Position numbers and translations under genes: made by a program
Origin: Bacteroidota bacterium
GTDB lineage: Bacteria; Bacteroidota; Ignavibacteria; UBA10030; UBA6906
Length of the DNA: 64,000 nucleotides
NCBI GenBank assembly: GCA_036397975.1
Contig: DASWHW010000056.1
Coordinates: 766 to 64,765 of the forward strand
Direction: 5' to 3'
In this document: positions 1 through 64,000 of the stretch, piece after piece
Position numbering within the stretch: the stretch's first letter is position 1
Layout of the letters: each line of letters opens with the position of its first letter
Notes under the pieces: generated by a model
The model's input: only the letters and a program-made list of their open reading frames with translations
What the model was told of the DNA's origin: nothing
Database searches by the model: none

Positions 1-1956
1 CGAGCCGCTGGGAAGAACAAACAACAGATTTTGGGTTGTAGAGCCGGCATAGTCAACTGCCAGATCGAAAACTATTGGTGTTCCGCAGACAAATCCTGGG
101 TCTGTGTTTACTTCAAATGGAATGAGGTTAGTGGAGGAACCACTTACGGCTATATTTGGGTATGACGACACTGGCTGGGCAATGACAACCCCCGGTGTGC
201 TGGAACTTAAAGCAGTAGTAATTGATGTCGCAGTTGCCGCTCCTGTGTTCCTTAGAGTAATTGAAAGATCATTGCACTCATTGAAATCAATGGTCCCGTT
301 TCCGTTTCCCCCGCTTATCGCAGATGAGAGGTAGCTGATACTTGCCTGGGGTGTGGGATCGGTAAACTGGAATGACGCGACCCTGGTCTGCCAGGGTGCG
401 GCTCCAGTGGTCTGAATGTATTCATCCGTATACCAAAAGGTCTGGTCGTCGGTGGGGTCGACGCTCATGCTTGTATAATCTCCCCATCGATTTGCTGTGC
501 CAGTTTGAGAGCCCGTTCCAGCAATGATTGTTTGTTCCGCAAGTGTCATTGTTCCAAGGGGATCTGTGGCGAGTCTGCCAGTGTATCGAATCGAAGGGAA
601 AACGCTTGAGCTTGAGACTGAATATCCGAGGGCTATACTTCCCTGACCGTTCATAGCAACGCTGCCGACCCACCGGTGGTTGGCGTCGGGGGCAAATGTT
701 CCTTGTTGGTGCATTGACCACGCGCCTGTTGTTTTGCGCAACTCATACCATCTGATTCCAGCATGGTCGCTGCTGTTCTCATCAACAGTATGATTTGTCA
801 AAAGAGTTTGGTGAGTTCCGAAGTTACGGTATTGCAGGCGATTCATCATGAGGTCGGCGAGAGCATCAAGCCGGACCACCGTTGAAGGCTGCGGAATGCA
901 GTTTCTGCTTCCATTACACATGTTTGCATCGAAGGAGGCTGTTGTGACGACCGTTGGTCCAGTGAAAGTAGAACTTCCCAATGACGCCCAGTTCACTGCC
1001 AGCTCAAACACCTCCATTCTATCTGATCCTCCATATACAGCTCCGTCTTCAGCGCCTGCAAAGTAGTTAGGTGCGCCCAACGGAGGAGGAGGACCGTCAA
1101 GATTGCAGGGCAAGATATGACCCTGAGACGTCGGAAGTTGAAAGACGATTCCTTGAGCAAGGCCACCGATAAGCATTTGATCCCGTTCAAGTGCAATTGC
1201 AGCCGGTCCGGCAAACGCCAGACTTCCAGAAGTGAATGTATTAATTGACATGTAGTAACCATCCGGCCACACCCCCAGCTTCGGGTAATCCGGCATATCT
1301 GGAAACTGGAATGCATAGCGATGCCACGCGCCAAGTGGATCATTGGTTTGCGAAACAGCGATCAGTTCGTAGAATGGTCCGTTGGGAAATGTGGGAAGGG
1401 CGAACTGGCTTGTAATCCAGCGATCTGCCAACGCATCGTACAATACAATCGGGTCTCCGTCGTTAGTTCCTGTCCAAGGACCATTGAACCCTTGCCACAA
1501 AGTGCTGTTGTCGGCTGGTCCATAGAGAATGTTTCCTGATTTCCCGTAGATCACAAATGAACTATTCACCATCTGAATATAATGGTTCGGTCCAACGTCT
1601 CCATCAGGATCGGGAGGATACACACCTTGTCGATTGCCAACCCCCTCGAAATTTACCAGGGGAACACTCATGGAGATTGACCCGCCGACTCTTTGTACCA
1701 CCGGGTCTGTTTCCGCCTGCTGATCCAACACGCCAGCATCCGGCCTTATCCGCATGAAGTCAAATTTGTTCGGGATCTCTTTTTCATTTCCATCCTTGGA
1801 TCGGTCCAACGGGGGAATCATCGGCATTTCACGCAGTCTCGGTGATGTATCGTTGTGTAAAGATTGAAATATCTCGGTTGGTTGATAGACTGTCTGCTGA
1901 GAATAGGAAAGAGGAACGATAAGGGAGAGACACACAATGGAGAAGAGATTCTTCAT
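1..1956 (-). CDS. Large secreted protein of an uncharacterised family, followed by an Ig/CARDB-like domain; runs off the left edge (partial)
   Basis: Manual translation from ATG at 1956 (GGAGGA RBS at 1965-1970) is open to position 1: MKNLFSIVCLSLIVPLSYSQQ... signal peptide; motifs PPDPDGDVGPNHYIQMVN, DGDPIVLYDALADRW, DYPKLGVWPDGYY; later SGGNGNGTIDFNECNDLSITLRNTG. Absent from the ORF track, probably because it has no stop codon in the window. Confidence 0.9.
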   Translation of the reverse strand, partial: MKNLFSIVCLSLIVPLSYSQQTVYQPTEIFQSLHNDTSPRLREMPMIPPLDRSKDGNEKEIPNKFDFMRIRPDAGVLDQQAETDPVVQRVGGSISMSVPLVNFEGVGNRQGVYPPDPDGDVGPNHYIQMVNSSFVIYGKSGNILYGPADNSTLWQGFNGPWTGTNDGDPIVLYDALADRWITSQFALPTFPNGPFYELIAVSQTNDPLGAWHRYAFQFPDMPDYPKLGVWPDGYYMSINTFTSGSLAFAGPAAIALERDQMLIGGLAQGIVFQLPTSQGHILPCNLDGPPPPLGAPNYFAGAEDGAVYGGSDRMEVFELAVNWASLGSSTFTGPTVVTTASFDANMCNGSRNCIPQPSTVVRLDALADLMMNRLQYRNFGTHQTLLTNHTVDENSSDHAGIRWYELRKTTGAWSMHQQGTFAPDANHRWVGSVAMNGQGSIALGYSVSSSSVFPSIRYTGRLATDPLGTMTLAEQTIIAGTGSQTGTANRWGDYTSMSVDPTDDQTFWYTDEYIQTTGAAPWQTRVASFQFTDPTPQASISYLSSAISGGNGNGTIDFNECNDLSITLRNTGAATATSITTALSSSTPGVVIAQPVSSYPNIAVSGSSTNLIPFEVNTDPGFVCGTPIVFDLAVDYAGSTTQNLLFVLPSGS

Positions 1957-2048
1957 GACATTGATCCTCCGAGTTGTTGATGGCACAGTTTACCAACCAA
2001 TACTTCGGGCACAACATCAATCGGTCGCTGCTGACCGGCCAGTATTGA

Positions 2049-11733: not shown

Positions 11734-12774
11734 GTGAGGAACAAAATTCTCGCTTCCAGAATCCACGTTCTTGCCTCCGTCGTCGTGTTCACAATGTGGG
11801 TTTGGGGAGCGGATAATTTCTCCACTTCCTTAAACGGTGATCCACGCTCTACACTAGGGGCTATTCTCCATGGAACAGCTCATAGACCTTTTGTAGAACG
11901 AATGCTGGTCCCAATACTGACTCGAGGTGTTTACGCACTTGCGGACGAAGAAAGGTGGAATGACCTGAGCAGATTCCTCCTAAAGATTCCCAAGATTCAA
12001 GAGGAAACAACACGCCTTGGCTGGGAAACTCAGTACCTCCCTGAATACATCATTGCTCTCGGACTCGCGCTGGGATCTCTTATTGGCTTTGCATTCGTTT
12101 TCGAAAGGTTCTATTCCTCACTCTATGAAACATATGATGTTGTTACCAACGCTCTCCCCACATTAGCAGTTCTTTGTCTCCCCCCTTTTTTTGATGTCGG
12201 GACACACTATATTTATGACTTTCCATCATTGCTCCTGTTTACGATGGGATTGCTGCTGATGCAGAAAAGGAAATGGACTCTCTTCTACCCTGTTTTTATC
12301 ATAGGATGCCTGAATAAGGAAACGATGGTAATCCTCTTGGTGGGGTTTGTGTTACTCTTCTATCAGCGAATGAGTAGACGGAAGATGCTCCTTCATGTCG
12401 CCGCGCAACTTGGGATATTTGCAATAGTAAAGGGGCTTGCAATGTACCAGTATGGTGCGAATCCAGGATCTTCGTTGGAGTTCCATTTGTACAGAAACAT
12501 TCATTTTCTCCTTCTTCCATATAATGTTGTGACGCTGATAGTTGGTGCGGTAATCATCGGACTGACGGTCTACGACATTAAAGAAAAACATATTCTCCTC
12601 CGAAAAATGGCATGGTTGATCGTTCCCTTTGCAGCACTCATGGTTGTGTTTGGACTTGTAAATGAAGTCCGCGCGCTTTATGAGCTATTCCCTATCTATT
12701 TTCTGCTGATTGCGCATACGGTTCTGTTTTCTTTTCTTAAGCTCCCGTTTAAGCTCAAACTGGCGACGGAGTAA
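11734..12774 (+). CDS. Polytopic membrane protein of unknown function (possibly GT-C-like)
   Basis: 346-aa ORF with about 9 hydrophobic segments filling the sucD-ndk gap; GTG start. Confidence 0.75.
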   Translation: MRNKILASRIHVLASVVVFTMWVWGADNFSTSLNGDPRSTLGAILHGTAHRPFVERMLVPILTRGVYALADEERWNDLSRFLLKIPKIQEETTRLGWETQYLPEYIIALGLALGSLIGFAFVFERFYSSLYETYDVVTNALPTLAVLCLPPFFDVGTHYIYDFPSLLLFTMGLLLMQKRKWTLFYPVFIIGCLNKETMVILLVGFVLLFYQRMSRRKMLLHVAAQLGIFAIVKGLAMYQYGANPGSSLEFHLYRNIHFLLLPYNVVTLIVGAVIIGLTVYDIKEKHILLRKMAWLIVPFAALMVVFGLVNEVRALYELFPIYFLLIAHTVLFSFLKLPFKLKLATE

Positions 12775-15124: not shown

Positions 15125-15155
15125 TTGACTTTTCCTGAGCAATTGAGTAGATTTG
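15125..15155 (+). promoter_or_regulatory. Promoter of the GAF-GGDEF gene
   Basis: TTGACT-17 bp-TAGATTTG (TAnnTTTG-type). Confidence 0.6.
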
Positions 15156-15220
15156 AAACGTTTATTGATTGCCTTACTCTAAGTACATGGCAAGAAAAGA
15201 CCGATGGTGGCAGCCACTCG

Positions 15221-17125
15221 ATGGTACAATTTTTCACAAAAGCAGCTCGCGATCCCGGACGTACCATCCTGATTCTCGTTTGTATTGCACTCACCATCGG
15301 CTTTTTTTATTGGTCAGCAATCGGCAAGGTCATCAGTGCCCTGATCATTCTCTTTGCGGTCGGCGTTCTGGTCTGGCGTGAAAGGAAAAATCTGCAGCGG
15401 CACACACTGTTTTCGAAAGCGGAAATGTATTCACATCCCCCCGAAGGCAATATGAAAAAACTGCTCTTTGATGATTACCAATCACCATCTGGTGGCAAGT
15501 ATATCGTAAAAGAGGTACAAGAGAGCGAGGTTACAGTCCCGTCGACGAAATCGGTGCAATCAGTGCCGGCGGTTCGTCTAGAAGATATTGCTGAGTTCAG
15601 TATATCTGATTTTTTTGATCTCGACTCGGATGTTTTTCAGGATGAAGTTGAGCCAAAAAATGAATTCAATTTCCTCATGCGAAAAGTGCTCCACGCGCTC
15701 AAGGATATGGTATTCGCCCATGCCGCAATGTTCTTTTGGGTGAACAAGGAAAAAGGGGAGATTGTGTTGGAGTCGCGTGCGACAGAAAGTTCAAATGTTG
15801 TTTCGGGCAAACGTTTTCCTATCGAAAACGATGTCGTCAGTCAGGTGGCTCTGAGTGGTAAGCCGGTCTATCTCGGGCGTATTGATCCCTCATCGGAGAA
15901 GGATCTCTTGGTCTACTATGAATCACCCGAGTATGTGAAATCGGTGGTTGGAGTTCCCGTTTTCTACGGAAGCGGCAAAGAGGAAGTTTCTCCCGTCGGC
16001 GTTATTGTTGCAGACAGCAAGGCGGAGGATGCTTTTGGATTCGAGACGGTAAGCATTCTGGGAAATTTCACGAAGCTTGTCTCTGCTCTCATCCAGAGTT
16101 ACACGAAAAAGTATGATCTTCTCCTTGATTCCGAGCTGCTCTCTTCTGTAAGAAGAATGTCCGATCGGATCAAGTCGGACCCTCATGAAGCGACGGTGTT
16201 GCAGTCCTTGATTGATGAGGCAAACCGCCTTCTCAATTGGGACACTTGCACGGTGACGATGTACAGTGATGAATTTCAGGGGTGGACCGTTCAGCGGGTC
16301 ATTCAGAAGACTGATGACCCCTGTGTTGCGTCGGGTCATCCGGTGAGTTTTGATTCATGTGTGGTTGGTGAGACGATCAGGACGAACACGGTGAAGGTCA
16401 TTGCAAACCTTCAGGAAGAACGGACCTGTCGATATTCGCCAGAGGAGCCTCCGGTGAACGGAGGGTCATTCCTTTGTGTTCCCATTAGCTCGATTAATCG
16501 CTGCTACGGAGCCGTAGCACTTGAAAGTCAGAACCCGGGAAATTTTTCGGGGACAGAAGTTGAGACGTTGTTCCGCCTCGTGGAAAGTGCCTCAGCCTTG
16601 CTCGAGGTTATTTACATGAATGACATAGTGAAGGATTATGTCATTGTTGATCGGCTCACCGGTTCTTTCACGAAGAAGAACTTCTTGAAGAAAGTAGAAG
16701 AAGAAGTTCAGCGAGCGGAGGATTTCGGCACTGACCTTGCCCTTGTTTCTCTTGCAGTGGACAATGTTGAAGAACATATCCATCGATATGGGAAAGAAGG
16801 ATTTGATTCTATCCTTCATCAGATTGCGAAAGTTGTCCGGGCAAATATCCGTCCCTATGATATTATTGGCAGGCAGGAATCCCATTGCCTGGGCGTCCTT
16901 TTTGTGAACACCCCCGCGGGAGATGCCTATGTATGGGCGGAAAAAGTGAGAAAAATGATCGCCTCTCACGTGATCGAAGTAGCCGGGAGAAGCTTCTCGG
17001 TTACGGTGAGTGTCGGCGTGTGTGGTCTCATAGATGGAATGAGGAAAGATGACCTTCTGGAAGGCACGGCACAGGTGTTGCACACAGCAATCGAAAACGG
17101 CGGGAATCTCGTCCGGGTATATTAA
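15221..17125 (+). CDS. Membrane-anchored GAF-GAF-GGDEF(degenerate) protein
   Basis: Two N-terminal TM helices, two GAF-like domains (KSVVGVPV, SFLCVPI), C-terminal DRLTG...RPYDIIGRQESHCL...VTVSVGV. Confidence 0.85.
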   Translation: MVQFFTKAARDPGRTILILVCIALTIGFFYWSAIGKVISALIILFAVGVLVWRERKNLQRHTLFSKAEMYSHPPEGNMKKLLFDDYQSPSGGKYIVKEVQESEVTVPSTKSVQSVPAVRLEDIAEFSISDFFDLDSDVFQDEVEPKNEFNFLMRKVLHALKDMVFAHAAMFFWVNKEKGEIVLESRATESSNVVSGKRFPIENDVVSQVALSGKPVYLGRIDPSSEKDLLVYYESPEYVKSVVGVPVFYGSGKEEVSPVGVIVADSKAEDAFGFETVSILGNFTKLVSALIQSYTKKYDLLLDSELLSSVRRMSDRIKSDPHEATVLQSLIDEANRLLNWDTCTVTMYSDEFQGWTVQRVIQKTDDPCVASGHPVSFDSCVVGETIRTNTVKVIANLQEERTCRYSPEEPPVNGGSFLCVPISSINRCYGAVALESQNPGNFSGTEVETLFRLVESASALLEVIYMNDIVKDYVIVDRLTGSFTKKNFLKKVEEEVQRAEDFGTDLALVSLAVDNVEEHIHRYGKEGFDSILHQIAKVVRANIRPYDIIGRQESHCLGVLFVNTPAGDAYVWAEKVRKMIASHVIEVAGRSFSVTVSVGVCGLIDGMRKDDLLEGTAQVLHTAIENGGNLVRVY

Positions 17126-17153: not shown

Positions 17154-17348
17154 ATGGCAAAGCAGCAATCGTTTCAGGACAAAGCAACCAAAGCAGCGTC
17201 GATGAAGGGTTCGAAGTGCGAGAAGTGCGGAACTGTTTACCAACCGCTTCTGCTGGTTACCTCTGAACAGTCAAAGTCGACGAGCTGGAAATTTAACGAG
17301 CGCAGGGTGTTGGTCTGCAAGTGCAATGAGAAGCAGGTGTACGCCTGA
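17154..17348 (+). CDS. Small basic Cys4 (Zn-ribbon-like) protein, candidate bL38/DUF4295-like ribosomal protein
   Basis: MAKQQSFQDK...CEKC...WKFNERRVLVCKC; followed by a terminator. Confidence 0.75.
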   Translation: MAKQQSFQDKATKAASMKGSKCEKCGTVYQPLLLVTSEQSKSTSWKFNERRVLVCKCNEKQVYA

Positions 17349-17410
17349 CAAAGGTGAACTTTGTTTCGCTTCGTTCGTATAAGCACGTGGTATGCCACGA
17401 AAAATTATTG

Positions 17411-17438
17411 GAGGAGCTTGATCGAAGCTCCTCTTTTT
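17411..17438 (+). terminator. Intrinsic terminator
   Basis: GAGGAGCTT-GATCG-AAGCTCCTC followed by TTTTT. Confidence 0.85.
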
Positions 17439-17460
17439 GTAGGACAATTCGCACTTCCTG

Positions 17461-17736
17461 ATGAAAAAACCGAGCATGGAGTTTGAGGCGTATTTGGGAC
17501 AGAATGGAGAAGTGGCTGTCCCGAAAACGGTGTTGGAGCAACTCAAGGGGAAAAATCGCCGGGTTCGCGTGCGAATCACTGATGCTGAACTCTCTGATCG
17601 ACTTCGAACCAAGGGAGTGGAGGAAGAAGAGATCGATCGAATTGCCTCGCTGCAGATGGAGTCCCGTTCACAGGTGATCGCATTTCTTCTCTCTGAAGGG
17701 CAGCTTCGTGGTGTGCGAAAGAGGAATCGTCGTTGA
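17461..17736 (+). CDS. AbrB/MazE-like swapped-hairpin protein (antitoxin-like)
   Basis: MEFEAYLGQNGEVAVPKTVLEQL...RVRVRI N-terminus, acidic helical C-terminus; overlaps the next gene by 4 bp. Confidence 0.6.
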   Translation: MKKPSMEFEAYLGQNGEVAVPKTVLEQLKGKNRRVRVRITDAELSDRLRTKGVEEEEIDRIASLQMESRSQVIAFLLSEGQLRGVRKRNRR

Positions 17737-18170
17737 TCGTGCCGAAGCTTGTGATTCATACAGATGTCCTGAGAGATCATCTGTATGGAAGTCGATCACC
17801 ATCGATCTTGCGAATTGCGCAATCAAAATTTTTCTGTTACACAACGGTGTTTCAGGCGATTGATTTGTTTGCGGAAGCCACAACAGCGATTGAACGCGAG
17901 GCAATGCAAAACTCGATGGCGACACTGAAACTGTTGGGCATGAACGCCAAGAACGCATGGGAATACGGAAGGCTTCTGAAAGCCAATGAGCAACGGCGGG
18001 AATTATATGTTATGGCGGCCGGCCTTTGCATTGAATCGCGATTGCCCTTGTTGACAAATCAAGGAGGTGTGTTCAAAGGAATGAAGAATCTTCAACTTGT
18101 TCCTGCTTCCCTGATTGCGAGAGAAGAATCCGCAAAGAAAATTTTGAATGTAGCACGAAGGAAAAAATGA
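17733..18170 (+). CDS. PIN-domain (VapC-like) protein with a degenerate active site
   Basis: LVIHTDVLRDHL, TTVFQAIDLF, YVMAAGLCIESRLPLLTN pattern of the PIN fold; TTG start. Confidence 0.75.
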   Translation: MIVPKLVIHTDVLRDHLYGSRSPSILRIAQSKFFCYTTVFQAIDLFAEATTAIEREAMQNSMATLKLLGMNAKNAWEYGRLLKANEQRRELYVMAAGLCIESRLPLLTNQGGVFKGMKNLQLVPASLIAREESAKKILNVARRKK

Positions 18171-18436
18171 TACTCGGCAAAGTGGTCGGTACGGTGTGGG
18201 CAACGCGGAAGGACGAAGAGCTTGTGGGAATGAGTTTCCAAATAGTGAAGCACTTGGACCTCAACTACAAACTGAAGGATACGTTTGTCGTTGCGGTCGA
18301 TACTGTCCAGGCGGGCGTCGGTGACGTGGTACTGATGTGTACCGGTAGTTCTGCGAGGCAAACGACGCTCACAAAAAACAAGCCGGTGGATGCCGTCATC
18401 ATGGCTGTTGTTGACAAGATCGATATAGCGGACTGA
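18167..18436 (+). CDS. EutN/CcmL microcompartment vertex protein (BMC-P), GSSAR type
   Basis: MILGKVVGTVWATRK, AVDTVQAGVGDVVL, GSSAR, PVDAVIMAVVD. Confidence 0.93.
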   Translation: MILGKVVGTVWATRKDEELVGMSFQIVKHLDLNYKLKDTFVVAVDTVQAGVGDVVLMCTGSSARQTTLTKNKPVDAVIMAVVDKIDIAD

Positions 18437-18705
18437 TGTTCCTTGCAAGGGTTATAGGGACTGTCTGGGCGACTCGAAAAAACGAGTTTTTGCAGTCGCT
18501 CAAGATGCAGTTTATTCAACCGATGAATGCCAATCGAGAAAAAGTTGGCGATCCATTGGTTGCGATAGACACGGTTGGCGCAGGGGTTGGAGAGACGGTC
18601 ATGTACATTACTGCCCGCGAGGCTGTGATTCCTTTGCCGGTGGAAATGGCACCGGTCGATGCCAGCATTGTCGGCATCGTGGAGAAAATTGATTTGGAAG
18701 AGTAG
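18436..18705 (+). CDS. Second EutN/CcmL vertex protein (BMC-P), AREA variant
   Basis: MFLARVIGTVWATRK, AIDTVGAGVGE, TAREA, PVDASIVGIVE. Confidence 0.93.
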   Translation: MFLARVIGTVWATRKNEFLQSLKMQFIQPMNANREKVGDPLVAIDTVGAGVGETVMYITAREAVIPLPVEMAPVDASIVGIVEKIDLEE

Positions 18706-18777: not shown

Positions 18778-19632
18778 GTGAAAAGTACCAAGCAATATAC
18801 AAGCCGTGAGAGCCAGTCTCTTGATACCTACCTTCAGGAAATCGGGAAGGTAGACCTTCTCAAGCCGGAGGAGGAGATTGATCTGGCGAAACGGATTAAG
18901 AAGGGAGACCAGCTTGCGCTGGAAAAGCTCACGAAGGCGAACCTTCGTTTTGTGGTGAGCGTGGCGAAACAATACCAGAACCAGGGTCTCTCGCTGGGCG
19001 ATCTCATCAACGAGGGGAACCTGGGTCTGATCAAGGCCGCGAAGCGTTTTGATGAGACACGCGGCTTCAAGTTTATTTCATACGCGGTGTGGTGGATCCG
19101 GCAGTCAATCTTGCAAGCGCTCGCGGAACAGTCCCGCATTGTGCGTCTTCCTCTCAACCGCGTCGGTGCTCTGAACAAAATCGGCAAGGCCTTCAGCTCG
19201 CTAGAACAGGAGTTTGAACGTGAGCCAAGTGCAAGCGAACTTGCGGAAGAGCTCGACATGTCATTGTATGACATCAACCTTGCACTCAAGAATTCTGGAC
19301 GCCATATTTCCATGGATGCGCCGTTCGTGCAGGGCGAAGAGAGTCGTCTTCTTGATGTCATCCAGGACGAGCGTCAACCATCTCCTGATTCGGAGTTGAT
19401 GAAGGAATCACTAAGTGGAGACGTCGAACGGGCTCTGGCAACGCTGACAGAGCGTGAGGCCGAAGTAGTTCGCCTTTATTTCGGTCTGGGGCGTGAGCAC
19501 TCACTCACACTTGAGGAGATTGGAGAAAGCTTCCGGCTCACACGTGAGCGTGTACGTCAGATCAAAGAAAAGGCGGTCCGTCGCTTGCGCCATGCGTCAC
19601 GCAGCAAACAATTGCGAGCGTATCTTGGCTGA
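18778..19632 (+). CDS. sigA: Primary RNA polymerase sigma factor, short Bacteroidota/Chlorobi type lacking region 1.1
   Basis: [52 protein letters not shown]; GTG start. Confidence 0.9.
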
Positions 19633-20937: not shown

Positions 20938-21888
20938 GTGTCAACAGAAACGGGAGCCGGAGGACTAAAAATTGTATTCATGGGAACTCCGGAATTTGCG
21001 GTTCCGAGTCTTGAGATTCTCCTGAACAACAACTACGTGGTCGCCGCAGTTGTCACTGCCCCGGAGAAACCTCGTGGTCGCGGCCAGAAACCTTCTCCCA
21101 CCCCCATCGGTGTAATTGCCCGAAAGAACAACCTCACCCTACTTGCTCCTCAGTCTCTTCGTGAGAAAAAGCTTATAGAAACATTGAGCGCGTACCGACC
21201 AGATCTTATCGTCGTAGTCGCGTTTCGCATTCTCCCACCTGAAGTGTTTACGATACCCCGATTGGGTTCGTTCAACCTCCATGCATCGCTACTTCCGAAA
21301 TACCGGGGTGCAGCTCCCATCAACTACGCTATCATGAACGGTGAAAAAGAAACAGGTGTGACGACGTTTCTTCTACAGGAGAAGGTCGATACCGGAAATA
21401 TCTTGCTCCAGGCTCGTGTTCCAATCACAGAACAGGACAATGCAGGCACGATGCACGACAAGCTTGCGGAGGTAGGGGCAGAAATCGTTCTTCATACAGT
21501 CCAACTAATCGAACAAGGGAAGGCAAAACCACATTTGCAGGATGACAACATTGCAACTCCCGCTCCGAAGATATTCAAAGAAGACTGTCGGATTCAATGG
21601 AACCAGCCCGCACGCAGGGTGAGAGATTTTATTCGGGGTCTAGCTCCTTATCCTGGGGCGTTTACGAGACACAGGGGGAAGGTGTTGAAGATTTACAAGA
21701 CTGCTCTAGTCGATGACGCATCAGGAAGAAAACCCGGTACACTTATCGCTTCAGCAAACTCGCTTAACATTACCACTTCGGATTCGGCTCTTGCCATTCT
21801 TGAGCTTCAAGTGGAGGGAAGAAAGACATTGGAAGTAGAGGAATTCCTTCGGGGATACAGGATTGAATCGGGCGAGACATTCGAATAG
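20938..21888 (+). CDS. fmt: Methionyl-tRNA formyltransferase
   Basis: IVFMGTPEFA, NLHASLLPKYRGAAPI; GTG start chosen just after def. Confidence 0.96.
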   Translation: MSTETGAGGLKIVFMGTPEFAVPSLEILLNNNYVVAAVVTAPEKPRGRGQKPSPTPIGVIARKNNLTLLAPQSLREKKLIETLSAYRPDLIVVVAFRILPPEVFTIPRLGSFNLHASLLPKYRGAAPINYAIMNGEKETGVTTFLLQEKVDTGNILLQARVPITEQDNAGTMHDKLAEVGAEIVLHTVQLIEQGKAKPHLQDDNIATPAPKIFKEDCRIQWNQPARRVRDFIRGLAPYPGAFTRHRGKVLKIYKTALVDDASGRKPGTLIASANSLNITTSDSALAILELQVEGRKTLEVEEFLRGYRIESGETFE

Positions 21889-21928
21889 TTCCAGAATGAG
21901 CCCTACGAGATTTCTCAACCACTCCCGG

Positions 21929-22639
21929 ATGAACAGAATCGCTACATTGACGGCTAGTTCCGTCATATTAGTCCTATTGAGCGTCGGTTGTGGATCAACA
22001 CGCGAGCCTCTGGTTGTCACTGAGGCAAAGATCAATGCCCTGAGGGCTTTCGATGCACTGCTCCCGCTTGAACCTGACAGCATTGTTGAACTGTATAGAC
22101 TGAGTACTCCGGCGACATTTCATACGAGGTACCGTCATGAACTCGAGATGGCGGGTCGCTTTATTGACTCAATGAACGCTCTCCTTCCCGACTATGCCAG
22201 GATCGATACACTCGCGATTGACCACGAGTTCGAGAGTTTCGGGGAGGCAGGATGTACCGGCCGGACTATCTACCTTTCCAGCAGTTACTTTCTGATTTAC
22301 AACGATTCTGCTGTAATTTGTTCCATTCTTACGCATGAAACCGGGCATGTTCTGTTTCGCTATCTCCCGACAGCAACGCAAATCGCTCTGAACAAGATAT
22401 GGAAGAAACTGAGGGACGCTTCGTTGCTCTATCTCTTTCGGGATGGCGAGTATTCTGGTAATGCGAAGTTCGGTGGGCATCCGTATGAGAGTCCCGCTGA
22501 GCTTTTTGCTTCGGCTTTCAATCTTTTCCGAAACCAGAGGATAGAGGTTGCCTCCCGGCTTCGATATGTCGATCCGATTCATCTTCCTGATATCGAACGC
22601 CTTCGAGAAATCGTCGAGATTGCCGTTAAGGGTTCTTAA
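21929..22639 (+). CDS. Lipoprotein with a HExxH zinc-metallopeptidase motif
   Basis: Lipobox-like LLSVGC; ILTHETGHVLF; downstream ESPAELFASAF. Confidence 0.7.
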   Translation: MNRIATLTASSVILVLLSVGCGSTREPLVVTEAKINALRAFDALLPLEPDSIVELYRLSTPATFHTRYRHELEMAGRFIDSMNALLPDYARIDTLAIDHEFESFGEAGCTGRTIYLSSSYFLIYNDSAVICSILTHETGHVLFRYLPTATQIALNKIWKKLRDASLLYLFRDGEYSGNAKFGGHPYESPAELFASAFNLFRNQRIEVASRLRYVDPIHLPDIERLREIVEIAVKGS

Positions 22640-27439: not shown

Positions 27440-28756
27440 TTGGGTCAGAAACAAGCCTCGTTTTTTTTCCTCATTGCAGACACCTCTTGGGTCAGAAAGG
27501 ATCTCTTCACGAGACAAGCAATATTTTTCATCATTGGAGTGCTCCAATTGTTCGCGATTGGACAACCATCTGTCGCCGGTGATGATCAAATAAAGACGAA
27601 TCAGGAATCGAGCCTTAAGTTCAGTGGATATTTTCAGCCGCAGTTTCGTGTTCGCAGAGATGATAGCCTTGCCGCAACTGAAGCCGGTCAGTTCTCTGGC
27701 GGTGTATTCGCAAGGAATGCGAACAACGAATTTGACATACGTCGTGGACGAGTGAAAGCGACGTACACAAAAGGACTTACACAAGCGGTCATCCAACTTG
27801 ATGCAACTCCCGGGAGTGTCATACCAGTTGACATTTATGGTGTAATCGTGGAACCATGGCTTCGATCGTTCGGACTTCAAGTTGGGTTGTTCAACCGTCC
27901 ATTTGGATATGAAGTTGAGCTTTCTTCAGGAAAGCGAGAATCTCCGGAGCGTACTCGAGCCACACAGACGCTATTTCCGGGAGAGCGCGATATCGGTGCT
28001 AAACTTTTCTATAAAGCCCCTGACAACGGGCTGCTTTCCCTTGAGATCGAACTTGGTGTCATGAATGGGACGGGACGATCGACTGAAGATTATGATAGTT
28101 TCAAAGACATTATTACTCAGGCATCTATTTCTATACCGCTGGACGATGAGAAAACGAATTTGGGAATTGGGGCATCTGGGTATTTCGGGAAAGTGGCAAG
28201 CGGAACACAAACGGTGTTTAATCCTTCGAGCGATGGATTTCTTGAGATGACCTCAGCGGATAATCTCGGCAAGGGTCTTAAGAGAACATATTATGGAGGC
28301 AATGTGCAGTTTTCGACTGAACTTCCATCGTTGGGAACGCTCTCTATTCGCGGAGAAGTAGTCGCTGGTAAGCAGCCCGGAACCAGTAGCTCCACGGTTA
28401 GCCCATCGCGTCAGCCTTCGGGTGATCTCTATCAGAGAAATCTCCTGGGTTGGTATGTGAACCTTGTTCAAAATCTCGGATCACAAAACCAAATCGTTGT
28501 CAAGTACGATGTCTATGATCCTAACACGGACGCAGGAGCTGCCGATTTTATCGCTTCCAGCAACCTCACTCCGGCAGACGTCAAATTCAGCACACTCGGT
28601 TTCGGCTTCATCCATCATTGGGATAGCCAGGTGAAGTTCGTGTTCTACTATGAAGTTATTCAAAACGAAGAACTTAGTTCAGCGTCAAGTATCACCAGGT
28701 ACACAAGCAATCTCAAAGACGATATCTTTACCCTGCGTATGCAGGTCGCTTTCTAA
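27440..28756 (+). CDS. Phosphate-selective porin (OprO/OprP-like)
   Basis: FSGYFQPQF, FDIRRGRVK, GLFNRPFGYE, RDIGA, C-terminal LRMQVAF; directly upstream of pstS; TTG start uncertain. Confidence 0.8.
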   Translation: MGQKQASFFFLIADTSWVRKDLFTRQAIFFIIGVLQLFAIGQPSVAGDDQIKTNQESSLKFSGYFQPQFRVRRDDSLAATEAGQFSGGVFARNANNEFDIRRGRVKATYTKGLTQAVIQLDATPGSVIPVDIYGVIVEPWLRSFGLQVGLFNRPFGYEVELSSGKRESPERTRATQTLFPGERDIGAKLFYKAPDNGLLSLEIELGVMNGTGRSTEDYDSFKDIITQASISIPLDDEKTNLGIGASGYFGKVASGTQTVFNPSSDGFLEMTSADNLGKGLKRTYYGGNVQFSTELPSLGTLSIRGEVVAGKQPGTSSSTVSPSRQPSGDLYQRNLLGWYVNLVQNLGSQNQIVVKYDVYDPNTDAGAADFIASSNLTPADVKFSTLGFGFIHHWDSQVKFVFYYEVIQNEELSSASSITRYTSNLKDDIFTLRMQVAF

Positions 28757-33741: not shown

Positions 33742-34524
33742 GTGGGTAAAGTAATTGCAATTGCTAATCAAAAGGGTGGGGTTGGGAAAACGACTACCGC
33801 TGTTAATCTCGCGGCATGTATTGCGGCGGCGGAGAAAAAGACTCTCCTCGTCGACACTGATCCACAGGCAAACGCGACGAGCGGCGTTGGCGTAGACAAA
33901 ACACACGAGGGACGCAGCACGTACGAAATGCTGCTCGGAGAAGTCGGTGCCCGCCAGGCAATTCATCAGACAGCAATGCCATTTCTCGAAGTTCTTCCTT
34001 CCCACATCAACCTGGTGGGTGCAGAAGTTGAACTTGTGCAGTTGGATGAACGGGAGACCCGCATGAAATCCGCACTTGCGGAAATTCGTGAGGAGTACGA
34101 GTTCATCATCATCGATTGCCCGCCTTCCCTCGGTCTCCTGACACTGAATGCTCTCGCTGCCGCGGACTCAGTGTTGATTCCGGTGCAATGCGAGTATTAT
34201 GCGCTCGAGGGATTGGGTCAGCTCCTGAACACGATCAATATGGTCAAACGCCAGTTAAATGAGTCGCTTGACATCGAAGGGGTGCTGTTGACAATGTATG
34301 ACAGCCGTCTGCGCCTTTCGAACCAGATTATTGATGAAGTGAAAAAGTATTTCGGGGAGAAGGTGATGAAATGTGTTGTCACGCGAAACGTTCGCTTGAG
34401 TGAAGCCCCGAGCTTTGGCAAACCCATTATTTTGTACGACGCAACTTCCTCAGGGACGAGGAACTACATGGAGCTTGCACAGGAAGTACTGGTGAACAAC
34501 CACCATCAGGTGATCACGGTATAA
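33742..34524 (+). CDS. parA: Chromosome partitioning ATPase ParA/Soj
   Basis: [34 protein letters not shown]. Confidence 0.95.
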
Positions 34525-34550
34525 CATTGTTCACAAATCAGGGAAGAACT

Positions 34551-35465
34551 ATGTCAAAAGGAAAACAAGTTCTTGGCAGGGGATTGGCGTCATTGATACC
34601 CCGGCCAATACAACCAATCCAGGCGCCCTCCCCCACGCGTCAGGATGACGGAGTAACAGACCAAATCATTGCCGGCATCGACATCAACAAGATACATATG
34701 AACCCCTACCAGCCGCGGGCCGATTTCGATCCCGTTGCCCTTGATGAGCTCCGGCGCTCAATTCAGGAGAAAGGTATCATCCAGCCGATTACCGTTGGTC
34801 GCACAGAGGATGGGTATCAACTGATTTCCGGCGAGCGCCGCGTGCGGGCCGCGCGCGAAGCAGGACTCGCACAAATTCCCGCCTACATTATTCGCATTGC
34901 ATCGAATGAAGAGATGCTGGAGCTTGCCCTGATCGAAAACCTCCAGCGCGAGCACCTCAACCCGATTGAGATAGCGATTTCCTACAAGCGACTCCTTGAG
35001 GAATGCAGCCTCACCCAGGAACAGGTCTCGGACCGCATTGGCAAAGATCGTTCTACCGTGACGAACTCCCTGAGGTTGTTGCGTCTCCCGGAGGCAATTC
35101 AGATGTCGCTCCGCAAGGGTGAGCTGAGTGCAGGGCACGCACGCGCGCTCTTGAGTATTGAGGACAGCAAAGTACAGAATCAGATTTTTGCAAAGGTTCG
35201 TGAGAAGGGAATTTCCGTCCGTGAGGTAGAGCGACTTGCGCGTGAATCGGGGAAAGGGAAGAAAAAAGCTCTCCGTCTGCAGGCTTCCCTAGGGTACCAC
35301 GATAGCGCAATGAGCGCCATTGAAGAAAGGCTCCGCCAACGGCTCGGAACAAAAGTCCAACTGAAGCAAATGACCGACGGAAAGGGTGAGATCATCGTCG
35401 AGTATTATTCGGGCGACGACCTTGAACGAATTCTCGATCTTCTCACCGCGGACGTTGTTCATTAA
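34551..35465 (+). CDS. parB: Chromosome partitioning protein ParB/Spo0J
   Basis: [39 protein letters not shown]. Confidence 0.95.
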
Positions 35466-63349: not shown

Positions 63350-63927
63350 AGCGGAAGGGTGATCAGGAGGAAGAACAACGGGCGAGTGGTTTCTCGATGA
63401 AATGGATTGCTCTTGGAATATTAGTCCTCATTGGCGGAGGTGCATTGATGGTTCTCCTGCGTTCTGATAATCAAAAAGGGAGTTCTGCTTCGACGGACAC
63501 TCAGAGAGAAACGTACGGATTCAGGAAGGACGGAGAGCTTCGGTTTGAATCTTCTTCCGGAAAACATCTTGCCACCATCGCAATTGAAATCGCCGAGGAT
63601 GAAGCCGCGATTACCATAGGCCTCATGAACAGGCGTGTCGTTCCCGAGCTTCACGGAATGCTCTTCATTTTCCCAGATGAAGAACTCCGCTCCTTCTGGA
63701 TGCGCAACACCTACGCATCACTTGATATTATCTTCGTCAATAGCAATCTTGAGATAGTTGCATTACATCCCTACACTCAGCCATTGTCGGATACTTCGTA
63801 TCCATCGACGAGACCGGCGCAATATGTTGTTGAGGTTGCTGCAGGTTTCGCGGAGAAGCATGGTGTTCAGGCGGGCGATGGAATTGTGTGGACTCGGAAT
63901 CAAGTGAATAGAAACAGGCGTCTTTGA
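63346..63927 (+). CDS. DUF192-family protein with N-terminal TM anchor
   Basis: GLMNR, GMLFIF...FWMRNT...LDIIF, YVVEVAAG. Confidence 0.9.
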   Translation: MKRKGDQEEEQRASGFSMKWIALGILVLIGGGALMVLLRSDNQKGSSASTDTQRETYGFRKDGELRFESSSGKHLATIAIEIAEDEAAITIGLMNRRVVPELHGMLFIFPDEELRSFWMRNTYASLDIIFVNSNLEIVALHPYTQPLSDTSYPSTRPAQYVVEVAAGFAEKHGVQAGDGIVWTRNQVNRNRRL

Positions 63928-64000
63928 TATTTCCGAGGGAATGGTTCGCGCTAGTAGTTCAGCAGCAGCCAAAATTGTCGCAAATTCCACTTGCCTCTCG

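What the first reader, a model, noticed from the sequence alone, without database searches (positions are those of the whole stretch)
18167..18705. Orphan pair of divergent BMC pentamer genes with no hexamer shell or cargo enzyme in 64 kb
Seen: two EutN/CcmL proteins of different subtype (pore motif GSSAR versus TAREA), and no Pfam00936 hexamer, aldehyde dehydrogenase, PduL or other signature enzyme anywhere in the window. Established: pentamers normally cap BMC vertices and sit with shell loci, though satellite loci exist. Inference: either a satellite of a dispersed microcompartment of unknown function, or a shell-independent role such as hetero-pentamers.
Basis: partly seen in the sequence, partly recalled or inferred. 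Interest (0 to 1): 0.7.

Follow-up and report, generated by a model that had tools for sequence, protein, structure and literature searches.

The report
Scattered microcompartment vertex gene pair
Two real genes for the five-sided corner pieces of a bacterial protein organelle sit alone beside the main sigma factor gene, which matches the "fragmented" (FRAG1) microcompartment layout catalogued for Ignavibacteria in 2021, so this is a new example of a known puzzle and not a new system.

Summary
Positions 18167-18436 and 18436-18705 encode two 89-aa EutN/CcmL (PF03319) proteins that are 40% identical. One has the canonical GSSAR pore loop and the other has TAREA. No BMC-H/T domain, aldehyde dehydrogenase, PduL, aldolase or PduS occurs in the 64 kb.

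The pair is not an oddity of this genome. Exactly this pair, with no hexamer gene within 10 kb, occurs in 80 species-level genomes of Ignavibacteria, Melioribacteraceae, Kryptonia, Rhodothermales, Calditrichaceae and Chlorobi relatives. It usually lies just upstream of an RpoD-type sigma gene, and in 54 of 80 loci just downstream of deoB, which this window lacks.

That taxon range and layout match FRAG1, the shell-gene-only fragmented microcompartment type of Sutter et al. 2021. FRAG1 has a BMC-P triplet, two BMC-H genes and sometimes PduS/T, all scattered.

In metagenomic loci that carry a hexamer gene plus three pentamer genes, the pentamers fall into three loop classes: GSSAR, x[RK]EA and EGNxAR. 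P1 groups with the first class and P2 with the second. A third pentamer gene and the hexamer genes are therefore expected elsewhere in this genome.

Function remains unknown, and a sugar-phosphate (SPU-like) role is only a hint.

The parts
18167..18436 (+). P1: an 89-aa BMC-P (EutN/CcmL, PF03319) vertex protein of canonical type with pore loop GSSARQ. It is probably the 'green'-clade member of the FRAG1 triplet.
   Evidence: Pfam E 2.6e-28. The best solved relative is the BMC-P of the intact Haliangium ochraceum shell, 5V74 (E 1.5e-21, 45/87 identical). Orthologues in 80 loci are 66-93% identical, with GSSARQ nearly invariant. Median dN/dS is 0.14. P1 groups with type-A (GSSAR) triplet members and the PDB BMC-Ps (support 83.7/93).
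18436..18705 (+). P2: an 89-aa BMC-P paralogue of a divergent type with pore loop T-A-R-E-A (conserved core T-[AS]-x-E-[AS]-x-I-P). It is a member of the x[RK]EA triplet clade.
   Evidence: Pfam E 9.6e-26. The AlphaFold2 model has pLDDT 85.4, and the Foldseek top hits are EutN, GrpN and CcmL with TM 0.80-0.85. The 78 orthologues form one clade (100/99). Together with all 30 type-B pentamers of hexamer-containing loci, P2 orthologues form one split (92.3/100). P2 is up to 51/89 identical to those type-B pentamers. Median dN/dS is 0.18.
18778..19632 (+). A 284-aa RpoD-type sigma-70 factor (regions 1.2, 2, 3 and 4, no region 1.1), 72 nt downstream of P2. It is the conserved neighbour of the pair and is probably co-transcribed with it.
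   Evidence: Pfam regions 1.2-4. The best NCBIfam hits are RpoD models, all below their cut-offs. The gene is 71-90% identical and lies directly after P2 in the great majority of the 80 loci; in Rhodothermales it lies 5-9 kb away. No terminator-like site is predicted between P2 and this gene, and the spacer does not fold better than shuffled sequence (z = -0.28).
17461..18170 (+). Two small overlapping ORFs (91 aa; then 145 aa from TTG or 107 aa from ATG) inserted between the zinc-ribbon gene and P1. They look like a toxin-antitoxin pair. The second ORF overlaps the P1 start. This is a variable insert, not part of the conserved core.
   Evidence: ORFs. No Pfam or NCBIfam family matches. The pair is present in about half of the related loci and absent in the rest. 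Public gene calls differ on the start of the second ORF, giving 107 or 145 aa.
17154..17348 (+). A 64-aa zinc-ribbon-like protein (CxxC...CxC) with no known family. It is a conserved upstream neighbour in the Ignavibacteria-type and Kryptonia loci only.
   Evidence: An iterated profile search finds it upstream of P1 in 48 of the 80 genome loci and in the window. It is absent from Melioribacteraceae, Rhodothermales, Calditrichaceae and Chlorobi-type loci. No Pfam or NCBIfam hit passes its cut-off.
17410..17434 (+). A terminator-like hairpin (10-bp stem followed by a T run) after the zinc-ribbon gene. It probably marks the 5' limit of the transcription unit that holds P1 and P2.
   Evidence: scan_promoters_terminators. 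This is a consensus match only. No RNA data cover the site.
15125..17125 (+). A GAF-GAF-GGDEF protein, a conserved upstream neighbour. This is context only.
   Evidence: Pfam. It is syntenic in most loci. A GAF-GGDEF gene is also the upstream gene in the Kryptonia and Chlorobi-type loci.

Best explanation
P1 and P2 are two of the three vertex-protein (BMC-P) paralogues of a FRAG1-type fragmented bacterial microcompartment. In this type the shell genes are scattered around the chromosome rather than clustered with cargo enzymes.

P1 is the canonical pentamer (GSSAR pore loop, 52% identical to the pentamer that caps the solved Haliangium shell). It most likely closes the twelve vertices of a shell tiled by BMC-H hexamers encoded elsewhere in the genome. 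P2 belongs to a second, ancient pentamer clade (x[RK]EA loop, with an invariant Glu where P1 has Ser). In other bacteria this clade always travels with a canonical pentamer and a third pentamer of EGNxAR type inside complete metabolosome loci. Its specific job is unknown even there; it could be an alternative vertex with a different pore, or an assembly or cargo contact.

Shown here:
- family, fold and clade membership of both proteins;
- strong purifying selection;
- a pair conserved across several FCB phyla;
- no hexamer gene nearby in any of 90 loci.

Inferred:
- that this genome holds the third pentamer and the BMC-H genes;
- that a shell is actually built;
- that the pair is co-transcribed with the RpoD-type sigma gene;
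- that the cargo chemistry is sugar-phosphate or aldehyde like SPU microcompartments. This rests on deoB lying directly upstream in 54 of 80 relatives, though not in this window.
For: - Family and fold: both genes are PF03319. The P2 model is a BMC-P fold.
- Conservation: 80 genome loci carry the same adjacent pair, with exactly two BMC-P and no BMC-H within +/-10 kb.
- Taxa: the organisms are Ignavibacteria, Kryptonia, mislabelled 'Bacteroidetes', Chlorobi relatives and Rhodothermales. This is the taxon list the catalogue gives for FRAG1. The catalogue describes FRAG1 as 'shell protein only', with a BMC-P triplet, two BMC-H (one with a long C-terminal tail), and PduS/T in 24 of 57 loci (PMC8217296, Supplementary Data 2).
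- Catalogue entries: its tree files list Ignavibacteria FRAG1 satellite entries, namely BMC-P of 90 and 98 aa ('viridian3_mixed-spu'), a 229-aa BMC-H, and a PduT-like BMC-T in Melioribacter. P1 orthologues are 89-99 aa long.
- Triplet clades: in about 30 metagenomic loci with a BMC-H gene and three BMC-P genes, the pentamers have loops GSSAR, x[RK]EA and EGNxAR. P2 orthologues plus all 30 x[RK]EA members form one split (92.3/100). P1 plus the GSSAR members and the PDB pentamers form another (83.7/93).
- A complete locus with all three types: L125 (its type-C pentamer's closest named relatives are Candidatus Marinimicrobia proteins) is a complete SPU-type locus with RpiB, DeoC, BMC-H, AldDh and BMC-T, and it carries all three pentamer types.
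- deoB: above the equivalog cut-off in four loci tested, and by similarity directly upstream of P1 in 54 of 80 loci.
- Shell contact: both proteins keep the A49-G50-x-G52-(D/E)53 loop. The matching stretch contacts the hexamer in the GRM2 shell.
Against: - I also failed to find them for any Ignavibacteria relative by other routes.
- No hexamer gene lies within 10 kb of the pair in any of 90 loci.
- The catalogue itself reports that FRAG genomes yield no encapsulation-peptide hits and often no enzymes. A working organelle is therefore unproven for the whole type.
- Tight linkage to a housekeeping-type sigma gene would mean constitutive expression, which is unlike typical inducible metabolosomes.
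- deoB, the only functional hint, is absent from this window.
- No transcript evidence was found.
Confidence: 0.72

Rival explanations
1. Shell-independent role. P1 and P2 have been recruited away from microcompartments and act on their own as small pentameric (or mixed) beta-barrel rings. They would be expressed with the primary sigma factor and deoB as part of core physiology.
For: No hexamer gene lies within 10 kb in 90 loci. The gene order deoB / zinc-ribbon - P1 - P2 - RpoD-type sigma is conserved across several phyla, with no terminator before the sigma gene. [quoted passage not shown]
Against: P1 is a textbook vertex protein, 52% identical to the pentamer in the solved HO shell. P2's closest relatives outside this lineage sit inside complete hexamer-containing loci. 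Both keep the hexamer-contact loop. The catalogue reports BMC-H genes in FRAG1 genomes of the same taxa. The BMC Caller authors state that PF03319 proteins function exclusively in microcompartments (PMC9052549).
Confidence: 0.12
2. Satellite of a different, consolidated microcompartment locus in the same genome, for example MIC4. The catalogue finds MIC4 in Ignavibacteria and in Melioribacter alongside FRAG1. Under this reading P1 and P2 supply extra vertices to that organelle rather than to a separate FRAG1 shell.
For: The catalogue lists MIC4 main loci in Ignavibacteria and Melioribacter roseus (MROS_0101-0104), marked '2loci_inTaxon'. MIC-type loci can have satellite BMC-P triplets (Supplementary Data 2 text).
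Against: MIC4 has its own BMC-P (fadedGreen1). The P1-P2 pair is far more widespread (80 species-level genomes) than MIC4 (15 loci). The catalogue assigns the scattered Ignavibacteria shell genes to FRAG1. This could not be tested in this genome.
Confidence: 0.1
3. Decaying remnant of a lost microcompartment, with the two genes no longer functional.
For: Only that the usual neighbours are missing from the window.
Against: Both genes are intact and translationally coupled. They are 66-93% and 42-81% identical across phylum-level distances. Median dN/dS values are 0.14 and 0.18, and loop and core residues are nearly invariant.
Confidence: 0.02

Closest known systems
FRAG1 fragmented BMC type (Sutter, Melnicki, Schulz, Woyke, Kerfeld 2021, Nat Commun 12:3809, Supplementary Data 2)
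   Same: It consists of shell-protein genes only, scattered over several genomic sites. It is most prominent in Ignavibacteria and also occurs in Kryptonia, 'Bacteroidetes', Chlorobi and Rhodothermaeota. It carries BMC-P paralogues from different major clades. Its function is unknown.
   Different: Nothing tested differs. The paper does not describe the conserved position of two of the pentamer genes between deoB and the RpoD-type sigma gene. The remaining FRAG1 parts (third BMC-P, two BMC-H, PduS/T) were not seen for this genome.
BMC-P of the Haliangium ochraceum shell (Hoch_5814, PDB 5V74)
   Same: It is the best solved relative of both proteins. P1 aligns over 87 residues without gaps at 52% identity and has the same GSSARQT pore loop. 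The HO type also has a BMC-P triplet split between main and satellite loci.
   Different: HO has a main locus with BMC-H, BMC-T and an aldehyde dehydrogenase. P2 is only 34% identical to this protein and has a different pore loop.
BMC-P triplets of consolidated metabolosome loci, for example the SPU-type locus L125 (RpiB + DeoC + AldDh + BMC-H + BMC-T + three BMC-P)
   Same: One pentamer is of P1 type (GSSAR) and one is of P2 type (x[RK]EA). P2 orthologues form one clade with the latter (92.3/100). The deoB linkage in relatives fits the sugar-phosphate chemistry of SPU loci.
   Different: In those loci all three pentamer genes lie next to hexamer genes and enzymes. Here only two are present, and they sit among housekeeping genes.
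CsoS4A/CsoS4B, CcmL, EutN (characterised vertex proteins)
   Same: They share the Pfam family and fold. CsoS4A and CsoS4B are also an obligate adjacent pair of pentamer paralogues.
   Different: P1 and P2 score far below the NCBIfam equivalog cut-offs for CcmL (74.7 and 57.7 against 125), EutN (43 and 41 against 118) and CsoS4. No carboxysome or ethanolamine-utilisation genes are present.

Membership tests
BMC-P / EutN_CcmL (PF03319) | Full-length match to the family profile above the gathering score | tested here: met
   P1 scores 98.8 bits and P2 90.6 bits against a cut-off of 25, covering profile positions 1-83 and 1-82 of 83.
BMC-P / EutN_CcmL (PF03319) | Five-stranded beta-barrel fold with a short helix after strand 5 that lines the pore | tested here: met
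   P1 is 52% identical to 5V74 BMC-P. The P2 AF2 model (pLDDT 85.4) has strands at 2-12, 23-30, 41-45, 54-59 and 76-82 and a helix at 60-64. Foldseek gives TM 0.80-0.85 to EutN, GrpN and CcmL.
BMC-P / EutN_CcmL (PF03319) | Assembles as a pentamer and caps shell vertices | not testable with these tools
   This needs biochemistry or a multimer model. Only indirect evidence is available: the hexamer-contact loop A49-G50-x-G52-(D/E)53 is invariant or nearly so in both proteins.
FRAG1 fragmented BMC type | Shell genes stand away from any BMC-H/BMC-P 'main locus' and from cargo enzymes | tested here: met
   There is no PF00936, AldDh, PTAC/PduL, aldolase or PduS in 64 kb. The same holds for +/-10 kb in 90 related loci.
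FRAG1 fragmented BMC type | Taxonomic range: Ignavibacteria above all, plus Kryptonia, Bacteroidetes, Chlorobi and Rhodothermaeota | tested here: met
   The record titles of the 80 loci name exactly these groups, plus Calditrichaceae. The window's nearest relatives (P1 89-93% identical) are MAGs labelled Ignavibacteriae, Bacteroidota or Chitinophagales.
FRAG1 fragmented BMC type | BMC-P triplet, with one member from each of three major clades (green, grey, orange) | tested here: inconclusive
   Two members from two different clades are present: P1 with the canonical GSSAR clade and P2 with the x[RK]EA clade. The third (expected EGNxAR type) is not in the window, and the genome could not be searched. 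The catalogue's colour names could not be assigned because its BMC-P tree file is truncated.
FRAG1 fragmented BMC type | Two BMC-H genes elsewhere in the genome, one with a long C-terminal extension | not testable with these tools
Indirect routes returned only Myxococcota-type or multi-domain proteins and consolidated loci of other phyla.
CcmL / EutN / CsoS4 equivalogs (NCBIfam) | Score above the equivalog cut-off | tested here: not met
   Against NF053795 (cut-off 125), P1 scores 74.7 and P2 57.7. Against NF011992 (cut-off 118), they score 43.2 and 40.9. Against TIGR02703 (cut-off 120), they score 34.1 and 23.3.

The most novel reading that the evidence does not exclude
The unit deoB - P1 - P2 - primary sigma factor is an ancient, vertically inherited operon of the Ignavibacteria / Melioribacter / Calditrichota / Rhodothermales lineages. 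In these bacteria the two pentamers would be made constitutively with the housekeeping sigma factor. Two possibilities follow. FRAG1 may be a permanently present, housekeeping microcompartment for (deoxy)ribose-phosphate or aldehyde chemistry, unlike the inducible metabolosomes known so far. Alternatively, the two pentamers may work without any shell.
Probability: 0.12. Interest if true: 0.7.

Novelty: new member of a known kind. Interest (0 to 1): 0.27.

Why it matters
FRAG microcompartments are among the least understood entries of the BMC catalogue. They have no cargo, no encapsulation peptides and no known function, yet they are common in environmental Ignavibacteria and relatives. This locus adds nothing categorically new.

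The comparative picture gathered here does give testable handles:
- The two adjacent pentamers belong to two distinct triplet clades that can be recognised by their pore loops (GSSAR against x[RK]EA). This predicts a third pentamer of EGNxAR type.
- The pair is tied to the RpoD-type sigma gene in the great majority of relatives.
- The pair is tied to phosphopentomutase (deoB) in two thirds of relatives. This points to SPU-like sugar-phosphate chemistry and to constitutive expression.

If a cultured carrier of this locus (Melioribacter roseus is catalogued with FRAG1) were examined, these clues could turn an unexplained catalogue class into an experiment.

Tried and rejected
1. Whole-genome search for PF00936 and PF03319, and laying the genome into the Python box.

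2. Finding Ignavibacteria BMC-H through the protein collection.
The 120 listed were at least 82% identical, and every named member in the four large clusters was Myxococcota or 'Deltaproteobacteria'.
- A padded query meant to catch the 229-aa tailed BMC-H returned only multi-domain BMC proteins.

3. A metagenome scan with a BMC-H profile returned consolidated loci of other phyla. The one locus from a sample that also holds this species (L126, JGI Ga0214472) is a 69% GC BMC locus (DeoC-type aldolase, BMC-H, BMC-P and aldehyde-dehydrogenase-like ORFs by eye) from another organism.

4. A search with a type-C pentamer to find the third FRAG1 pentamer returned Marinimicrobia, Calditrichia, 'FCB group' and Phycisphaerae names, but no Ignavibacteria among the 120 listed.

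5. Expression. The only RNA run holding any of the region covers part of the conserved sigma gene of a relative and nothing of P1/P2.

6. Promoters. No sigma-70 consensus was found. The Bacteroidetes-type TAnnTTTG motif is not enriched, and its only nearby copy lies inside P1.

7. A weak BMC-like hit at the window's end (63766-63999, minus strand) is a spurious frame opposite a DUF192 gene.

8. Assigning the catalogue's colour clades failed. The stored BMC-P tree file is truncated and holds no sequences.

9. The paper on the HO shell structure is not held under the PMC id I tried.
Full report
**What is there**

Two 89-codon ORFs lie head to tail on the + strand at 18167-18436 (P1) and 18436-18705 (P2).
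- The P1 start overlaps the stop of the upstream ORF (ATGA).
- The P2 start overlaps the P1 stop (TGATG).
- A 72-nt spacer leads to a 284-aa sigma-70 gene at 18778-19632.
- Both proteins match Pfam PF03319 (EutN_CcmL) over the whole profile, with E 2.6e-28 and 9.6e-26.
- They share 36 of 89 residues.

**The rest of the window**

I scanned essentially every ORF of at least 120 aa against Pfam (precomputed hits for 8-28 kb). The window holds housekeeping, transport and envelope genes:
- psd/pssA-like genes, purQ-like, tatA, an amidase, sucD, ndk, a NUDIX gene and namZ;
- a GAF-GGDEF protein, NlpC/P60, def and fmt;
- a TonB-dependent receptor, pstSCAB-phoU and parAB;
- proline dehydrogenase, OPT transporters, DPP-IV and uvrB;
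- gap, pgk, ispG, folD, a DEAD-box helicase and a GH3 enzyme.

There is no PF00936 domain, PF00171 aldehyde dehydrogenase, PduL/PTAC, class II or DeoC aldolase, or PduS.

I also built a BMC-H profile from 172 BMC-H sequences plus four typed seed sequences. Run without filters on all six-frame ORFs of at least 40 aa, it gave no hit better than E = 2.2. That hit is a spurious reverse frame of a DUF192 gene. A BMC-P profile finds only P1 and P2.

**The genome as a whole could not be searched**

**The pair is widely conserved**

A scan of one genome per species found at least 380 relatives of P1. The best 80 loci (P1 66-93% identical) come from MAGs labelled Ignavibacteria/Ignavibacteriae, Melioribacteraceae, Candidatus Kryptonia, Rhodothermales, Calditrichaceae and Chlorobi-type. 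Many are labelled only 'Bacteroidota' or 'Chitinophagales'.
- The exact P1 protein occurs in soil, sediment and groundwater metagenomes. One is a 59.9-kb ENA contig that is co-linear with the window.
- Every locus carries exactly the adjacent pair, with no third BMC-P and no BMC-H within +/-10 kb. This covers 1.3 Mb in all.
- The RpoD-type sigma gene follows P2 directly in the great majority of the 80 loci (71-90% identical). In Rhodothermales it lies 5-9 kb away.

The upstream gene varies:
- A GAF-GGDEF gene and a 64-aa zinc-ribbon gene precede the pair in the Ignavibacteria-type and Kryptonia loci.
- deoB lies on the same strand less than 1.5 kb upstream of P1 in 54 of the 80 loci. In four of these loci (Melioribacteraceae/Ignavibacteriae, Calditrichaceae and Rhodothermales) it scores above the NCBIfam phosphopentomutase equivalog cut-offs. 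The 54 include the window's closest relatives, L001-L010.
- The window and a few relatives have no deoB. Here the zinc-ribbon gene is followed by a hairpin terminator (17410-17434) and then a two-ORF, toxin-antitoxin-like insert that runs into P1.

**Both genes are under constraint**
- GSSARQ is nearly invariant in P1 orthologues.
- P2 orthologues keep T-[AS]-x-E-[AS]-x-I-P. The Arg of 'TAREA' varies, while Thr59, Glu62 and Ala63 do not.
- Median dN/dS is 0.14 for P1 and 0.18 for P2.
- In a tree, the 78 P2 orthologues form one clade (100/99) on a long branch. P1 orthologues sit with the solved pentamers. The duplication therefore predates the split of these phyla.
- The AlphaFold2 model of P2 (pLDDT 85.4) is a BMC-P barrel with the short pore helix. 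Foldseek gives TM 0.80-0.85 to EutN, GrpN and CcmL.
- P1 is 52% identical to the pentamer of the solved Haliangium shell, 5V74.
- Both keep A49-G50-x-G52-(D/E)53. In the GRM2 shell, the matching stretch of the pentamer (G49, D54) contacts the hexamer (PMC6971018).
- Neither reaches the NCBIfam equivalog cut-offs for CcmL, EutN or CsoS4.

**What is known**

The BMC catalogue (Sutter et al. 2021, PMC8217296) defines 'FRAG' types whose shell genes lie in up to six places, mostly away from enzymes and without encapsulation-peptide hits. It describes FRAG1 (57 loci) as follows:
- a 'shell protein only locus type';
[quoted passage not shown] - a PduS/T pair in 24 loci.

Its tree files list Ignavibacteria FRAG1 satellite entries:
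- BMC-P of 90 and 98 aa ('viridian3_mixed-spu');
- a 229-aa BMC-H;
- a PduT-like BMC-T of Melioribacter.

The taxon range is the one I found independently. P1 orthologue lengths (89-99 aa) fit the listed 'green' entries. I reached this reading from the paper before opening the earlier notes of this scan. Those notes report the same conclusion for orthologous loci in other genomes. They are not independent evidence.

**A test of the triplet idea run here**

A metagenome scan with a BMC-H profile gave 80 loci. About 30 of them carry a BMC-H gene plus three BMC-P genes.
- Their pentamers fall into three loop classes: A (GSSAR), B (x[RK]EA, for example VRGKEASF or VTGREAAM) and C (EGNxAR or EGRAAG).
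- In an IQ-TREE analysis, the 16 sampled P2 orthologues and all 30 class-B proteins form one split (SH-aLRT 92.3, UFBoot 100).
- P1 orthologues, class A and the three PDB pentamers form another split (83.7/93).
- P2 is up to 51/89 identical to class-B pentamers, and P1 up to 51/88 identical to class-A pentamers.
- One such locus, L125, is a complete SPU-type metabolosome. It holds a SorC-type regulator, RpiB + DeoC, BMC-H, a class-A pentamer, an aldehyde dehydrogenase, BMC-T, and class-B and class-C pentamers. Its class-C pentamer's closest named relatives are Candidatus Marinimicrobia proteins.

The 'divergent subtype' P2 is therefore a regular member of a known pentamer clade. In other bacteria that clade is encoded inside full microcompartment loci. 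The window holds two of the three triplet members, and the third (class C) is predicted to lie elsewhere.

**How it most likely works**

P1 most likely caps the vertices of a shell tiled by BMC-H hexamers encoded elsewhere. P2 would be a second vertex form with a different pore (a ring of five Glu62 in place of Ser), or an assembly or cargo contact. That role is unknown even in model systems, where one pentamer suffices to close the HO shell.

The absence of a terminator-like site or stable fold between P2 and the sigma gene suggests read-through into the sigma gene, and thus steady expression. This is inference, because no RNA data cover the pair.

Three observations point to (deoxy)ribose-phosphate to aldehyde chemistry:
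- the deoB linkage in relatives;
- the 'mixed-spu' label of the catalogued FRAG1 pentamer;
- the SPU locus that carries the same triplet.

This is only a hint, and this window lacks deoB.

**Rivals**
- Shell-independent role (0.12). It fits the lack of nearby hexamer genes and the housekeeping neighbourhood. It runs against the canonical nature of P1, the company that P2's clade keeps elsewhere, and the BMC-H genes catalogued for FRAG1 genomes.
- Satellite of another locus such as MIC4 (0.10). This cannot be excluded without the genome.
- Decay (0.02). This is contradicted by the conservation.

**Verdict**

This is another instance of an already catalogued but functionally unsolved type. Interest is modest. 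The value lies in the loop-motif key to the triplet clades and in the conserved deoB and sigma-gene linkage. Earlier follow-ups in this scan have already noted the deoB and sigma-gene linkage.

Noticed in passing
window 17349-18166, compared with L001-L010: The window's closest relatives carry deoB (phosphopentomutase) between the zinc-ribbon gene and P1. The window and loci L012, L019, L020, L026, L027 and L038 lack it, leaving only 822-923 nt between the two genes. This looks like loss or relocation of deoB in this sub-lineage.
   Followed up: partly
window 17461-18170: Two overlapping small ORFs (91 aa; then 145 aa from TTG or 107 aa from ATG) match no Pfam or NCBIfam family. They are present in roughly half of the related loci and run into the P1 start (ATGA overlap). 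They look like a toxin-antitoxin insert. Public gene calls disagree on the start of the second ORF.
   Followed up: partly
window 17154-17348: A 64-aa protein with CxxC...CxC (consensus MAKQQSFADKA...KCPKCG...RVQVCKCNEKEIYA) is conserved upstream of the pentamer pair in 48 of 80 loci (Ignavibacteria-type and Kryptonia). It has no family assignment and is absent from Melioribacteraceae, Rhodothermales and Calditrichaceae loci.
   Followed up: partly
L125 1-12273 (metagenome contig Ga0307988_1000018; nearest named relatives of its pentamer are Candidatus Marinimicrobia): A complete SPU-type microcompartment locus (SorC-type regulator, RpiB+DeoC, BMC-H, AldDh, BMC-T). Its three pentamer genes show the loop motifs GSSAR, SREAA and EGNGAR, which makes it a handy reference for the three triplet clades.
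   Followed up: partly
L126 (JGI Ga0214472_10013550): A 69% GC BMC locus with DeoC-type aldolase, BMC-H, BMC-P and aldehyde-dehydrogenase-like ORFs (judged by eye from the translations) occurs in one of the metagenomes that also holds this window's species. It belongs to a different organism and is not evidence for this genome.
   Followed up: yes
window 33742-35465: A chromosomal parA/parB pair lies 15 kb downstream. ParA-type ATPases position carboxysomes in other bacteria, but nothing links this pair to the pentamer genes.
   Followed up: no
window 11734-12774, 21863-22639, 27440-28756 and 1-1986 (minus strand): Four sizeable ORFs (346, 258, 438 and more than 661 aa) have no Pfam family at E of 0.001 or better.
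   Followed up: no
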